Source: Mizuhopecten yessoensis (taxonomy: Eukaryota). Taken from it: 64,000 bases of DNA. Below, in pieces: positions 36,001 to 42,000 of this stretch (the first letter of the stretch is position 1; each line of letters begins with the position of its first letter). Location of the stretch: assembly GCF_002113885.1 (NCBI RefSeq), contig NW_018480076.1:525584-589583 (forward strand), written 5' to 3'. Position numbers: made by a program.

Positions 36001-39000
36001 GGGAGCTGAGTGCTGCCAATGTCTGCATACACCACGCCATATTGCTGATAGATATAAATCTCCATTTAAATTCCGCCGAAAATATGGTGACGACATCCCA
36101 AAGGCAATCATCTCTTTCGGATCACGTGTATAACATGATTCGGACAAAAGTTCGTCACATAGTTTATAACGAATCGTAGAAGTGACCAAACGCCGCATAA
36201 AGTTGTTTTTTTCCAACTTCTTTATTATTTGTTTCTGCTTGTTGTTGTTGTTGTTGTTGTAAAAGAACGCAGCAAAACAAATGATGTTTAGAAAGGCCCC
36301 AAGATGTGTTTGTTGTTAAAAGTGAAAATGGTGTTGCTGATATTACTAATTGATTTAAGCCCAAATTCAAGTTTTAATATGAATTTTTTGTAAACACACC
36401 AACAAATGCAGATTGTGCATAACTAAATATCATGATGCGGAAGAAATCTGAAATAGAATAATAAAAATGACTTTCCAGTACCTCAAAATATAAGTCACGT
36501 GTGTACTGTTTTCAGTGCTACAGTGTATCCTTGTCTTGTGTACCGCCGGAAGTGTTATTTGAGTGTTACATGTAGCAGAGTGTCCGGTCCCGTATTAGTA
36601 TCGCTCAACCAGACGCTTGATCACGTATATAGTAGCTTGTGTAGAAAACAAGTGTCTGGTTGAACGAGACTAATTCCGTATATGTGGAGCTTCCGCGTGT
36701 TTCCTGTGTAACATATACATGTAATCTTTGCGTCAAAACCATAACAAAGTATTGTATCCCAATGGTCCTGGACGTGAGCGTTTTGCGATACTGTATTGCG
36801 TAATCAAAATGTTTTACACGTGTTTTTCGAAGATAATCGATTGTCCGGTATTGCAGTTAGTAAAATAATAACGGACGCTATTTCCTTAACGTAATCGGTC
36901 ACACAAACCATCAATCAGATTACTGCTGAGGTTTGTAAGATACAAAAAATCTCGTTACTATCATATTAAATTAGTTTAAAGTAATACAGGCATCTGTATA
37001 TACGCCATCTTAATTTATTTAATGTAAATTGAAAAGGTTAGATGTAGGTTAGATGTAGGTTAGATGTGAAGAAATTCTGCCTTTCGATATTGTTTATTTG
37101 CCCTGCGCTTCCATATTTGAATCTTTCTTATAATAAAACTGATAACATATTTGAATTATTTTTTATTAACAGGTACAAATAGTAGTCACTATGGCCACCG
37201 GAAGACACAACTACGTCATAGACCTTACTGTGATCCGATTGGCTAGCCTTAATCAGATGTTAGATCCTTGGATTTACATTCTACTCCGGAAGACTATTCT
37301 TGACAAACTGAAACTAAGTTTTAAAAAAGTCTTCTGCTTTTGTTGTCCGACTCAAGAGGTAGAGGAAGGTACAGACCAAAATGCGCATGCTCATCATCTT
37401 AGATGTTTCCGTAAGCAATACAATACTGCAGGACCGCAGCATCTGTGTCACTATCAGAACATACCGGCGGGAGTAGGGTCGTGTCGAAATCACTCAAAGA
37501 AATGTTCTAAAAGATCAGACGGAAGTAGGAATAAAAAACATTCACTTCCGGATGTTATGAGAGAGGCACACTCACTCAGTCCCCAGGGTGACTTGCTGAG
37601 ACCGGATGTTGCAGCTGGCGACACCTACAATGAAATATGCAATCAATGTCAATCAACTCATACTCATTCAAAATTAGAGAAAAAATCGTCGGTCCCGATA
37701 GAATGTGCTTACGCTAACAGTGTACTTATGGGACAACAGTGTAACCATGGTTCTGATGACGACAGTGACAGTTCAACGAGCCATGAACACTGTAACATTT
37801 GCTCGGGTGTGGAAGAGTCGCAGACTAACGATGTATTCTCCGATCCGGCGGTAGAGACCCTAGAGTCAGAGGTGTTCATGACAAAAACCACAACCAACAG
37901 CGGAGGTGGTGGAGGGGAGTCCAACAACCTTCTACAGGCTCCCGTGTCCAGTTCCCGCCGCCACCTCTACTCTGACGTCATTCCATCGTTTAGGTCATTT
38001 CGCCTTCCCAGGTATGTAGCATTAGCAAGTTAAGCCGTTTGTCGTCATCTATTTGCTCCATTTTGCTTACCATAATTAATTCAGATGATCTATTTGATTT
38101 GTTTAGAATGAAGGTAGTATTTGGCTGTTATATGAGCCGTTTCGGCGTTTATTGACTATTACGATCATTAACTGACAATAGTAAAATATTAGTGGACATG
38201 TAACAAGCGATGAATTTAAAAGTCTATAAATATTATAGAACCCGTGATTATAGATCTTGATTACTAACATCGTTAATCTCGATAAATTTTCGTAATCAAA
38301 GTAAACACCGATGACAGTGGTACGCACCATTAATTTATATCGCTTTTATATACAGACACTGGACAGTTGTGTCAGTGAACCGATTGGCCTCGCGCACTGT
38401 GGTTTTCCATGGTTGTAATCAGCTAATGGTCCTCGTTTTCTCTTTGTGGGATAGTCTGCCAGAATTGTTTAATTCAGGCCATATAAACAATTAACAAGTC
38501 TGCTGAATCTCTGCAGAGCAGTTTTGCGGCCGATTCACGATTAACACCGTAACGTTGGTGTTTTATAGACCGTCTGGTACCATATCGATCTGCGACCAGC
38601 TCGAGAAAGAAGCCTAGTTTGGTCACTAGGACCTGTGGTGCCCGTATAATGGTGAACTGATACCCAACCAGTGATTATATCATTTTGACGGGAATGTTGT
38701 CTGGGACGAAGCGATTTAGGCACCTTTGTTTCACGGGAAATAAACAGAACAGTTGCCTTTACATTAAGTATAAAAACACTTAATCAAGATTATATATTGA
38801 CCCAAGTAACGTTATTTGTGGAATGGTTTTGTTAAAAATACGCTGTAGAAAGAGCAGATTCCATTCAGACGAGTTTTTTGCTCAAAGTACGCCAGTTAAG
38901 TTTCATCTGTATTCAGTATTGATTGTATGTGTTAATACAACATAATTTGGATATGTCTAGGTTTTTGTGGAATTCGATTTAGTTTTCTGACACAAATCCA

Positions 39001-42000
39001 TTTCTTTGTGCTTGTTATGAACAAAACTTCTGGGCAGTTGATTGGTTGGCTGTTTGATTTAGGTTTTTATCATCGCCTTTTTTTAAAATGCAGGGTTTAC
39101 AGTCGCTACCATTTTTACTTTGCATTATGGGAGAGACAAAATGAACCTGTAAAGTTTTTGCATCCGGAAGAAACCGATGAATATTAGATAACTTACTTTG
39201 GACTTTTCGATTTTTCTTCTTTTTTTTTTTTTGATCGGTTTCTGACCCGATAATGTATAGCCTTCTGATGGTAACATTTTTTTTCTAATATTAAACGTTA
39301 AACCCAAGTTGTGTTTATCTTCAAAGGAACATGCACAATGTATGCTGTGCTAGTGTAAATAAAATATATATATTTTATTCGTTCGTCATGATTTAAAGTA
39401 TTGATTTGCCAACAAAACTAAATCACATTCGTTGTTTTATTAATATTTTGCAGACGAAAGAGTAAAAGGATCAAGTCAGCAACCTGATGTGTTAGCCGTC
39501 GATATGTTCAACGGGAGACAACTGTGACATTTTCTGCATTACCAAAATATCTATGTGATAATGTTCAAAGGGAGACAACTGTATGAAATGTTTTGCATTA
39601 CCAAAATCTAATATTGATAATCAAGCGTCAGTGTTGATCAAAAAGGAAAAGGTAATGCTGTAAAACTCCTCTCTGGGAAGATTTTTTGTGATTGGTAACT
39701 TAGTTGATTACTTTATTACACATTTGAAACGTTAAATCAATTATAATAATTCTACCACGTCGCAGATGAAACGATTTCAGTTTTTCTATCGATTTATATG
39801 CGAGACTGTTACACCCTGAACAAATACAAACCAAAACTTATCTACTCGGCGGGTTCCATAATATCCAGGTCCTGACCTGACTTGGCGAAACTCTTACATC
39901 GTAAGGCAATACGACTGATCGCTTGACGAATTGTTTACACGCACATAGGAACAGCCAAATTGTACAACAGATTATCTACGTTGCGCCGCTTTGTAAGCAA
40001 AAATACATTTCGTTAAATCGGACGTGGTAAAGTAGATTTTATCATCATGTAATATTAACCATTGTTTGGTATTGCAACAATATAACCCTACCAAATTCAG
40101 AAGGCACGCATAACAGTATACAGTTGTTTCATGCCTTATCAGTCAACAGTCAAAACTATTTTCCCGAGGAGTTGGGTCCCAACTCCGAGGGAAAATGGTT
40201 TTGACTGTTGACTGATAAGGCATGAAACAACTGTTTTGTTACTTGACTAATGAAAAACAAAAAGTTTCATGTCGTATGTGATGTTTAGATCTACCGAGAG
40301 ACGACCGTCAACAATCCAGTACCAAAAACGCTTGATCGTTCGATTACCTAACACGTGACCAGTCAACAGTTTTGCGGTAGCACACATTAGCTATAGTTCG
40401 TTGGTGAATTGTCTGGGAAACAGTCGAAATTGATTAAAATGCATTTATATAGCGAGTCAGGTAATAACAATGAATGACATTACCCATGTGCTGATGCCAT
40501 CATTACGTCGATGTCATGTTGTAACGTTGAATGAATACCACTGACCCTCCTAGAAGAAAACCGTTTTGTTCATTAAGTTAATGATGCATACCTTTATTTT
40601 AAGTTAAAAACTGAATTTTGGTAATTTAATCAATAATTTCAAATCTTTCAAAATGATAAATTTAAGCACTGAACTGCTTTCTGGTTGCATTCATAAAGTC
40701 AGTATATGTTGGAATTGACTACTTCCATGAAGCGCGTTGAATTTGTCATTTCCATCCGTAATTCATAATCAATTTGCCAAATGAAAGCAAAAGAATACAT
40801 CAATTAATGTTTATTGATGTTGATCATCCTCGAAATATGATTCATAATCAATTTGCCAAATGAAAGCAAAAGAATACATCAATTAATGTTTATTAATGTT
40901 GATCATCCTCGAAATATGATTCACAATATCTTACGTGTAAATGGTGAATATTTCTTAATCGTTCATATTTTGAGGAAGATCATTTTAACACAAATCAAAG
41001 ATAGCATTTGAAAGGATATATACAACCTAACTTTAACACAAATCACAGGTATAATGTGTTATGTTATATTCATCCTTAACTCCAACACTATTCACACTTT
41101 CCTTTATCATACATGGAATGCGACTATTGTCGACTTCAACGAAGTACATCTATTTCAATTCAACAATGTTGATTTGTGTAAAGAACTTAAGAGATATAAA
41201 TTCAAATCATTAATAATTCAAAAGTCATTCACTGTTGTCAAAAAGAAAACAATAGAAATAAAAGGTCGAGTTTAAATTCATATGGTGGTGGGGGGGGGGG
41301 GGGGATTAAATTGTGGTTACAGGTTTAACTATCCGTAACGTTACTGAGTAAAAAAATTACCTCGTTGAATTTTACATTATAAGGCGCGAAAGTTAACACT
41401 GTATAGCATTGTATTACTTTACACGTGTGGCGCGTGTTTTGTTGTTGTTTGTATGAGTTTATGTTTTGCCCAATATCTTGACAGTCGAATGTTGAGGTCC
41501 TGTATCTAGTGAGAATGACACTGTCTGTGATACACCATGCTTTATGTATATTGTAATAAATTATTTTTGTATAAACTCTTTGTCGTGTTATGTGTTTCTG
41601 CGATACACCACGTGTTTATAACACAAGGACGAGTCGAATTGTTGCTATTCGACCAACATGGCGGCTTCTCACAGATCTTGACCTGGGAATGAATCGTAAG
41701 AATGATAACTCTATCTACTTTATAATCTATAATGATGCACGAAACTGTTTACCAATGTCGTCCCCGCAATGTCTGTCCTGAAACCTTTCCACACATATGA
41801 CATATGCGCCATATTTGTGTTAGTGCGCTTTGGTGTTGCTCTGCTCTGAAATCTGGTAGAGTTGATGTAACATCGGATTCCCTTCTAGTGGTATTTTACG
41901 ATTACTGTTGTTATCGCTCCACTTCTGTTTACCTTCTCTTTTCGTTCCTTGTCCCACTTCAATAGTATGACATTGTATCTAGACGACAGCAGATCGAATA

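What the first reader, a model, noticed from the sequence alone, without database searches (positions are those of the whole stretch)
38005..41600. Hidden alternative last exon: two predicted C-termini, each with its own poly(A) signal
A near-consensus donor CAG|GTATGT sits at 38012, about seven codons before the stop. A good acceptor ends at 39453; splicing changes the end from LPRYVALAS* to LPRRKSKRIKSAT*, a basic tail with kinase-type sites. One AATAAA (39358) lies ~95 nt before that acceptor and another (41555, with a GT-rich downstream element) follows it, the layout of competing intronic polyadenylation and splicing. Vertebrate EP3, FP and TP diversify by C-terminal splicing, so this could be a parallel mechanism. 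It is invisible in the ORF track.
Basis: partly seen in the sequence, partly recalled or inferred. Interest (0 to 1): 0.7.

Follow-up and report, generated by a model that had tools for sequence, protein, structure and literature searches.

The report
Missed last micro-exon of scallop receptor

Summary
The window holds a prostanoid-receptor-like GPCR gene of the scallop Mizuhopecten yessoensis, on the + strand.

The 10 codons plus stop at 39455-39487 (RKSKRIKSAT*) match the C-terminus of the orthologue model of Ylistrum balloti at 11 of 11 positions. They match those of Pecten maximus and Argopecten irradians at 10 of 11. This is the only such match among 127,936 six-frame positions of the window; the next best is 6 of 11.

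A related tail, [KR][KR]x[KR]Sxx-COOH, ends mussel, unionid and gastropod orthologues. So the third exon is genuine, selected coding sequence.

Only the deposited M. yessoensis model ends in the read-through LPRYVALAS. Other truncated models stop at the same alignment column with different or no extra residues.

The AATAAA hexamers occur at chance density. No transcript data could be reached.

Verdict: a constitutive terminal micro-exon missed by one annotation is most likely (about 0.8). Regulated alternative 3' ends are untested and unsupported (about 0.1). This is an ordinary gene-model correction with a mildly interesting conserved tail motif.

The parts
23838..24740 (+). Coding exon 1 (ATG to donor ATG|GTAAGT), codons 1-301, TM1 to TM6 of the receptor
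   Evidence: Sequence. Pfam 7tm_1 E 3.8e-33. 100% identical to deposited model P0001. 22 of 23 PDB sequences at E<=1e-10 are prostanoid receptors, best EP4 at 4.6e-43.
24741..37172 (+). Intron 1 (12,432 nt, phase 0), mostly satellite arrays
   Evidence: Donor and acceptor read. The junction PLM|VQIVV is as in P0001. Tandem arrays 24964-33774.
37173..38011 (+). Coding exon 2: TM7, helix 8 and a long (about 240 aa) C-terminal domain; ends with 2 bases of the Arg-581 codon
   Evidence: Only exon-2 residues 17-57 align to solved EP4. No Pfam family at E<=0.01.
38009..38017 (+). Donor site CAG|GTATGT (cut between 38011 and 38012)
   Evidence: It is the only MAGGTRNGT match inside exon 2, out of 6 on the + strand of the window.
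38012..38033 (+). Read-through codons (R)YVALAS and stop TAA; part of intron 2 when spliced
   Evidence: Present only in deposited model P0001. Not shared by any other model.
38012..39453 (+). Intron 2 (1,442 nt, phase 2); holds AATAAA at 38739 and 39358 and ATTAAA at 39290
   Evidence: No Rfam family in 36000-43000.
39436..39453 (+). Acceptor tttattaatattttgcag|A
   Evidence: Same crude pyrimidine score (0.67) as the intron-1 acceptor.
39454..39487 (+). Coding part of exon 3: last base of the Arg-581 codon, RKSKRIKSAT, stop TGA at 39485-39487
   Evidence: Unique 11/11 match to the Ylistrum balloti C-terminus plus stop, and 10/11 to Pecten and Argopecten. Tail motif conserved in other molluscs.
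39488..41580 (+). Candidate 3' UTR (end not established); contains short duplications, a 57-nt-arm inverted repeat and a 79-nt tandem duplication
   Evidence: The extent is inference only.
41555..41599 (+). AATAAA (41555-41560) followed 20 nt later by a G/T-rich stretch (41580-41599): plausible but unproven main poly(A) site. Another AATAAA at 41257.

Best explanation
This is the 3' end of a three-exon prostanoid-receptor-like GPCR gene of Mizuhopecten yessoensis.

- The last intron (38012-39453, phase 2) splits the Arg-581 codon. Removing it joins a 34-nt coding micro-exon and gives a 591-residue receptor ending ...SFRSFRLPRRKSKRIKSAT.
- This spliced end is the ancestral, normal (constitutive or at least dominant) C-terminus.
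- The LPRYVALAS end of the deposited model is what an ORF-based or homology-based annotation gives when it misses a 10-codon exon and reads on into the intron. At most it is what an unspliced (intron-retaining) transcript would encode.
- The tail belongs to a conserved extreme-C-terminal motif of molluscan receptors of this family ([KR][KR]x[KR]-S-x-x-COOH). It probably acts as a basophilic-kinase phosphorylation and/or trafficking signal.

Shown: the sequence signals, the frame, the identity with orthologue C-termini, and the spread of the motif.
Inferred: that splicing happens in this species, that it is constitutive, and what the tail does.
For: 1. Gene identity. Exon 1 is a 7tm_1 domain. 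Its best solved relatives are EP4, EP3, EP1, IP, EP2, TP, DP and FP (22 of 23 hits). Exon 2 aligns to EP4 TM7/helix 8. Exons 1 and 2 are 100% identical to the deposited M. yessoensis protein P0001.

2. Orthologue tails. Of the 5 proteins found with exon 2, 4 end in the spliced-type tail. Ylistrum ends RRKSKRIKSAT, Pecten and Argopecten RRKSKRIKSAS, and Mytilus LRKKRAKSYT.

3. Uniqueness in the window. The window codes this tail, with the stop at the same place, at 39455-39487 only (11/11, 10/11, 10/11; next best 6/11 of 127,936 positions). The frame is the one set by the donor at 38011.

4. Conservation strength. The 10 residues are 100/90/90% identical to the three scallops, against 83/82/79% for exon 2 as a whole. 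The micro-exon is therefore at least as constrained as the rest, which would not be expected of unused intergenic DNA.

5. Wider spread of the motif. Of 22 full-length or named rows that I picked from the 148 proteins held, 11 end in [KR][KR].[KR]S.X. These are 3 scallops, Mytilus, Gigantopelta, Haliotis, Patella, Sinanodonta, Potamilus and 2 unnamed. Four venerid rows end RKTKS plus 3 residues, and 2 oyster rows end RSHS[IY]T.

6. Transcript-like evidence in a relative. One oyster-like unnamed protein (P0101, 537 aa) with such a tail sits on contigs of at most 2,189 nt. That is an uninterrupted coding sequence, as expected of a transcript-derived contig.

7. Signal quality. The donor matches MAG|GTRAGT at 8 of 9 positions (consensus recalled). 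The acceptor scores like the gene's accepted intron-1 acceptor.
Against: - No transcript data for this species could be consulted, so neither splicing nor its completeness is shown directly.
- The orthologue proteins are computed gene models whose transcript support I could not see.
- The one public model found for this species reads through the donor.
- By simple signal rules the acceptor is not outstanding: 9 equally good sites lie in 3.6 kb.
- 11 of the 22 rows lack the strict motif. These include an annelid (Owenia), Elysia and a Ylistrum paralogue, so the tail is not universal.
- A read-through transcript would not be an obvious target of nonsense-mediated decay, because its stop lies in what would then be the last exon (general knowledge). 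A minor unspliced form could therefore persist.
Confidence: 0.8

Rival explanations
1. True alternative 3' ends. Regulated competition between splicing of intron 2 and intron retention or intronic polyadenylation gives two receptor forms: one with the basic RKSKRIKSAT tail and one ending YVALAS without it.
For: - Both ends are open in the sequence.
- AATAAA lies in the intron at 38739 and 39358.
- A deposited model uses the read-through end.
- Vertebrate EP3 shows that C-terminal variants of this receptor family can matter (PMC7509579, passages).
Against: - AATAAA density equals background: 137 observed against 118 +/- 10.
- The read-through peptide is absent from all other models. Truncated models stop at the same column with R, G or nothing, so there is no sign of selection on it.
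- The donor is near-consensus, which favours efficient splicing.
- The splice point is 240 residues beyond TM7, unlike EP3.
- No isoform with a second tail was among the hits.
Confidence: 0.1
2. The micro-exon is a relic in this species. M. yessoensis has lost use of the splice and now makes only the read-through protein; the downstream match is leftover sequence.
For: The only public model seen for this species reads through.
Against: The 33 nt are intact, in frame with the donor, and have the stop at the orthologous place. They are 10/10 identical in protein to Ylistrum. The GT donor, the AG acceptor and its T-rich tract are intact. Neutral decay would not be expected to leave all of this.
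Confidence: 0.03
3. The donor at 38011 is used, but with another acceptor in some transcripts. One of the 8 other acceptor-like sites in 38034-41600 would give further short tails.
For: One search lists 8 other sites of equal or better crude score, each followed by an open frame of 6-46 codons.
Against: None of these tails matches any orthologue C-terminus (no other window position above 6/11). The rule used is crude and my own.
Confidence: 0.05

Closest known systems
Public orthologue models named 'prostaglandin E2 receptor EP4 subtype-like' of Ylistrum balloti (P0002), Pecten maximus (P0003) and Argopecten irradians (P0004)
   Same: They are 79-83% identical over exon 2 and 90-91% over exon 1 for Pecten and Argopecten (Ylistrum, 596 aa, fell outside the length range). 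They have the same end ...SFRSFR[LI]PRRKSKRIKSA[TS]. The window encodes exactly this end if 38011 is joined to 39454.
   Different: The deposited M. yessoensis model (P0001, 587 aa) ends LPRYVALAS instead. I could not read the orthologous DNA, because no eukaryotic genome collection is on hand. Their intron positions are therefore inferred, not seen.
Vertebrate EP3 (also TP and FP, recalled) C-terminal splice variants
   Same: Same receptor family. The change is confined to the cytoplasmic C-terminus and is made by splicing downstream of the main coding exon.
   Different: In human EP3 the first 359 residues are common and the variable tails begin just after TM7 (PMC7509579, passages). Here the junction is in codon 581, 240 residues after the TM7/helix-8 motif, and affects 10 residues. 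Several tails are documented by cDNAs in EP3. Here only one tail is conserved and no transcript evidence for a second exists.
C-terminal trafficking-control regions of TASK-1/TASK-3 channels and GPR15 (COPI or Arg-based retrieval signal + basophilic-kinase site + 14-3-3 mode III motif)
   Same: An extreme C-terminal basic cluster with a serine that has Arg at -3. TASK is -K-R-R-K/S-pS-V-COOH (PMC4760375, passages). Scallop is -K-R-I-K-S-A-T-COOH and gastropods are -R-R-T-K-S-Y-T-COOH. GPR15 uses a phosphorylated penultimate Ser-359 to bind 14-3-3 and mask an Arg-X-Arg signal (PMC5555655, passages).
   Different: Two residues, not one, follow the serine in the mollusc tails. No phosphorylation, 14-3-3 or COPI binding was tested. 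This is a resemblance of motif only.

Membership tests
Prostanoid receptors (class A GPCR) | Rhodopsin-type seven-helix domain | tested here: met
   Pfam 7tm_1 E 3.8e-33 over the exon-1 ORF. TM7 lies in exon 2.
Prostanoid receptors (class A GPCR) | Closest characterised relatives are prostanoid receptors, with the TM7 stretch ...R..S.N..LDPW.Y.L.R (the TM7 Arg as the ligand-carboxylate contact is recalled) | tested here: met
   22 of 23 PDB sequences at E<=1e-10 are EP1-4, IP, TP, DP or FP; the best is EP4 at 4.6e-43. DLTVIRLASLNQMLDPWIYILLRK aligns to EP4 DLQAIRIASVNPILDPWIYILLRK.
Prostanoid receptors (class A GPCR) | Binds and responds to a prostanoid | not testable with these tools
No paper on a characterised molluscan receptor appeared in the listings.
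Alternative last exons with competing intronic polyadenylation (EP3-type C-terminal variants) | Two classes of transcripts with different 3' ends | not testable with these tools
   No RNA-seq, EST or 3'-end data could be reached. One search found no transcript-like fragments of this species (2 hits, both from other species).
Alternative last exons with competing intronic polyadenylation (EP3-type C-terminal variants) | Both alternative peptides kept by selection | tested here: not met
   The spliced tail is conserved. The read-through YVALAS is found in 0 of the 5 other models that stop at this column (P0006, P0008, P0096, P0149, P0013). Caveat: these are models and ORFs, not the DNA itself.
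Alternative last exons with competing intronic polyadenylation (EP3-type C-terminal variants) | Poly(A) signal placed beyond chance in the intron | tested here: not met
   137 AATAAA against 118 +/- 10 in shuffles for the window. There are 2 on the + strand in the 1,442-nt intron, about the background rate.
Alternative last exons with competing intronic polyadenylation (EP3-type C-terminal variants) | Divergence point just after TM7, as in EP3 | tested here: not met
   The junction is in codon 581, against K341 at the end of the TM7/helix-8 motif. EP3 has its first 359 residues in common (PMC7509579).
14-3-3 mode III / COPI trafficking-control C-termini (TASK, GPR15) | R-x-x-pS/pT-x-COOH (definition quoted in PMC4760375) | tested here: not met
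   Arg at -3 of the Ser is present (R-I-K-S, R-T-K-S). However, two residues follow the Ser in 11 of 11 motif rows and three in the venerids. A looser form with one or two residues after the Ser is recalled only.
14-3-3 mode III / COPI trafficking-control C-termini (TASK, GPR15) | Adjacent basic retrieval signal | tested here: inconclusive
   A basic cluster RRKSKR / KKR / ARR is present. Whether it acts as a retrieval signal is unknown.
14-3-3 mode III / COPI trafficking-control C-termini (TASK, GPR15) | Phosphorylation-dependent 14-3-3 binding and surface expression | not testable with these tools
   No job was sent, because the complex predictor cannot model a phosphoserine.

The most novel reading that the evidence does not exclude
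The conserved extreme C-terminus [KR]R-x-K-S-x-[TS]-COOH of molluscan prostanoid-type receptors may be a phosphorylation-controlled trafficking switch. It would combine a basic retrieval signal with a basophilic-kinase site and a 14-3-3-type C-terminal site, as in TASK channels and GPR15. Because it sits alone on a micro-exon behind the last intron, scallops could switch it off by retaining that intron, making a receptor (ending YVALAS) that escapes this control.
Probability: 0.07. Interest if true: 0.55.

Novelty: new member of a known kind. Interest (0 to 1): 0.2.

Why it matters
**Practical value.** The public protein found for this scallop gene (587 aa, ending YVALAS) probably has a wrong C-terminus. 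The likely product is 591 aa and ends RRKSKRIKSAT. Several other public models appear to lack the same micro-exon. Pinctada imbricata P0096 is one, and there are several unnamed ORF-type entries. Anyone cloning, expressing or comparing these receptors should use the spliced end.

**Biological value.** The last seven or so residues form a motif kept from scallops to limpets, while about 200 residues before it vary freely. That marks it as a functional signal worth testing for kinase, arrestin, 14-3-3 or COPI involvement.

**What it does not provide.** There is no evidence for a mollusc parallel to EP3-type isoform diversity.

Tried and rejected
- **Transcript fragments of this species.** A search with exon 2 at 'near' lengths found only 2 proteins, both from other species. 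This is no evidence either way.
- **Orthologous DNA.** No scan was made. Intron positions and read-through codons in other scallops were not read.
- **Rfam.** A scan of 36000-43000 gave 0 matches.
- **Pfam.** Nothing was found on exon 2 at E<=0.01.
- **Literature.** The listings (15 rows shown of 323, 16,530 and 14,553 papers; 8 of 10) showed no paper on splicing or C-terminal motifs of molluscan prostanoid receptors. I saw listings only, so this is weak evidence of absence.
- **Splice-site rule.** My own first threshold (70% pyrimidine) excluded the true-looking acceptor. I relaxed it to 65% after seeing that the accepted intron-1 acceptor scores the same. The rule is therefore descriptive, not a test.
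- **Jobs not sent.** No structure prediction or complex prediction was run. The tail is short and probably disordered, and the proposed binding depends on phosphorylation.
- **Joined searches left out.** As the operators asked, the spliced model was searched exon by exon: exon 1; exon 2. Exon 3 is too short for a database search and was compared with orthologue ends by script. The joined sequence was not built, typed or searched.

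
Full report
**What is at the coordinates**

The window is eukaryotic, about 36% G+C. On the + strand it carries a gene whose exons 1 and 2 are 100% identical to a deposited protein of the scallop Mizuhopecten yessoensis. One source names it 'Prostaglandin E2 receptor EP4 subtype' (P0001, 587 aa).

- **Exon 1** (23838-24740, ATG to ATG|GTAAGT) is a rhodopsin-type 7TM domain (Pfam 7tm_1, E 3.8e-33). Of the 23 solved-structure sequences it matches at E<=1e-10, 22 are prostanoid receptors. 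EP4 is the best at 4.6e-43, and the 23rd is a rhodopsin.
- **Intron 1** (12.4 kb) is full of satellite arrays.
- **Exon 2** starts at 37173 behind ttattaacag. It encodes TM7 and helix 8, the only part that aligns to solved EP4 (exon-2 residues 17-57). A long tail domain with no Pfam family follows.

**Check of the observation**

- The donor CAG|GTATGT is at 38009-38017.
- Read-through gives (R)YVALAS and TAA at 38031-38033.
- The acceptor ttttgcag|A ends at 39453.
- From 39455 the frame reads RKSKRIKSAT and TGA (39485-39487). The split codon AG+A is Arg.
- AATAAA lies at 39358 and 41555. The second is followed by a G/T-rich stretch at 41580-41599.

On signals alone this is not beyond chance.

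- CAGGTATGT occurs twice in the window against 0.78 expected, and 17 of 100 shuffles reach 2.
- AATAAA occurs 137 times on both strands against 118 +/- 10. On the + strand there are two copies in the intron (38739, 39358) and two after the new stop (41257, 41555).
- By a crude rule of my own, 9 acceptor-like sites in 38034-41600 score as well as 39453. With my first, stricter threshold, 39453 did not even pass. The accepted acceptor of intron 1 has the same score, however.

**What decides the matter: orthologues**

Searching exon 2 alone among longer proteins gave 5 hits: the deposited M. yessoensis protein, models from three other scallops, and one from Mytilus edulis.

| Source | C-terminal end |
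|---|---|
| Ylistrum balloti | ...SFRSFRLPRRKSKRIKSAT |
| Pecten maximus | ...RRKSKRIKSAS |
| Argopecten irradians | ...RRKSKRIKSAS |
| Mytilus edulis | ...RFSLRKKRAKSYT |
| M. yessoensis (deposited) | ...LPRYVALAS |

A six-frame scan of the whole window with the last 10 residues plus stop of each orthologue found one place, 39455-39487. It matched at 11/11 (Ylistrum) and 10/11 (Pecten, Argopecten). The next best of 127,936 positions was 6/11.

So the scallop genome keeps, 1,442 nt behind the donor and in the frame that this donor sets, exactly the peptide and stop that its relatives' proteins end with. The micro-exon is 100/90/90% identical to the three scallops, against 83/82/79% for exon 2 as a whole. 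Unused DNA would not be expected to stay so.

The joined protein was never built.

**How far the tail goes**

I ran a profile-free search of exon 2 against 1.8 billion representatives (86 hits at E<=0.001). I also searched exon 1 (66 hits at E<=1e-40). From the 148 proteins then held I picked 22 full-length or named rows.

- 11 rows end in [KR][KR].[KR]S.X-COOH. These are the 3 scallops, Mytilus, the gastropods Gigantopelta, Haliotis and Patella (all ARRTKSYT or TRRTKSYT), the unionids Sinanodonta and Potamilus (LRRTKSNT), and two unnamed long proteins (ARRVKSYN).
- 4 venerid rows end LRKTKS plus three residues.
- 2 oyster-type rows end ...RSHS[IY]T.
- 5 rows have no such end. These are the M. 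yessoensis deposit, Pinctada imbricata, the annelid Owenia, Elysia and a Ylistrum paralogue.

Over all 90 proteins held earlier, the strict motif was in 8.

One oyster-like unnamed protein with the tail (P0101, 537 aa) lies on contigs of at most 2,189 nt. That is an unbroken coding sequence, as a transcript-derived contig would give. This is indirect evidence that the tail is in mRNA in a relative.

**The read-through end**

Five other models stop at the same alignment column as the end of scallop exon 2:

- P0006 ends ...RLSR. It is an ORF on a 2,569-nt contig that starts inside what looks like translated intron just before VQIVV.
- P0008 ends ...FRLSR.
- Pinctada P0096 ends ...FRLSG.
- P0149 ends ...NRFSL.
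- P0013 ends ...CLKADK.

None has anything like YVALAS.

The simplest reading is that the intron position is old and that these entries, like P0001, lack the micro-exon. What follows the donor then differs by species, because it is intron. I could not read their DNA, so this remains an inference.

**Most likely mechanism**

Intron 2 is an ordinary, efficiently spliced last intron. Its donor matches the metazoan consensus MAG|GTRAGT (recalled) at 8 of 9 positions. The receptor is 591 residues long and ends in the conserved basic tail.

The tail has Arg at -3 of its last serine (R-I-K-S) and an R-R-K-S site. These are patterns of basophilic kinases such as PKA (recalled). PKA phosphorylates the similar -K-R-R-K/S-S-V-COOH end of TASK channels (PMC4760375, passages).

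The likeness to the TASK and GPR15 'trafficking control regions' is suggestive. Those combine a basic COPI or Arg-X-Arg retrieval signal with a C-terminal 14-3-3 mode III site (PMC4760375; PMC5555655, passages). But the definition quoted there (R-x-x-pS/pT-x-COOH) is not met, since two residues follow the serine. I therefore give this only as the boldest reading not excluded.

**Comparison with EP3-type splicing**

In human EP3 the first 359 residues are shared and the variable tails begin directly after the seventh helix (PMC7509579, passages). That TP and FP do likewise is recalled.

Here the junction is in codon 581, 240 residues after K341 of the DPWIYILLRK motif. It exchanges only the last 10 residues, and only one of the two possible ends is conserved. 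It is therefore not a member of that kind of system on the features I could test. The transcript test itself could not be done.

**What stayed unchecked**

- Transcript data of this species.
- The RefSeq model of the locus.
- Orthologous genomic DNA.
- Supplements of any paper (closed). Those of the genome paper may describe how the deposited model was made.
- The window holds one N, which I left alone.

**Verdict**

Interest is low (0.2). It is a sound gene-model correction plus a conserved C-terminal motif worth a bench test.

Noticed in passing
window 39455-39487; proteins P0002-P0005, P0009, P0011, P0033, P0038, P0107, P0110, P0136: An extreme C-terminal motif [KR][KR]x[KR]-S-x-x-COOH is kept in this receptor family from scallops and mussels to unionids and three gastropod lineages. 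About 200 residues before it vary freely. A second small conserved block, S-[DE]-[VI]-[ITL]-P, lies about 15 residues upstream.
   Followed up: partly
proteins P0096 (Pinctada imbricata), P0006, P0008, P0013, P0149: These public models or ORFs end at the alignment column of the scallop exon-2 end. They probably lack the same terminal micro-exon.
   Followed up: partly
window 24964-33774 (intron 1): About 9 kb of satellite DNA sits inside intron 1. One array of 38/76/152/228-nt periods spans 24964-31866. Arrays with a 68-nt period span 28478-33774; the unit printed for the 32824-33597 array looks like the reverse complement of the others (my reading of the units, no check run). They produce strong GC and AT skew and many spurious short ORFs.
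   Followed up: no
window 20783-22772: An 80/175-nt tandem array (97% matches, about 9 copies of 175 nt) lies about 1 kb upstream of the receptor's start codon. It gives spurious open frames of 514-594 codons on the - strand.
   Followed up: no
window 1-937 and 1230-1645; 52328-53282: Further satellite arrays are present: 39-nt periods at the window start, and 22/94/115-nt periods at 52.3-53.3 kb. These also give long spurious ORFs.
   Followed up: no
window 40120-40234: A near-perfect inverted repeat (57-nt arms, 95% complementary, 1 nt apart) lies in the candidate 3' UTR. It is hairpin- or MITE-like.
   Followed up: no
window 39504-39621 and 40761-40918: Two local duplications were seen. One is a unit of about 57-59 nt repeated directly after the new stop codon (families D3 and D4). 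The other is a 79-nt unit duplicated in tandem at 99% identity.
   Followed up: no
window 41290-41304: A run of 15 G lies in the candidate 3' UTR, between the AATAAA at 41257 and the ATTAAA at 41305.
   Followed up: no
window 24738-24741 / 37172-37173: Intron 1 interrupts the coding sequence within TM6 (CWAPLM|VQIVV). As far as I recall, vertebrate prostanoid receptor genes carry their conserved intron at this position. I did not check this against any source here.
   Followed up: no
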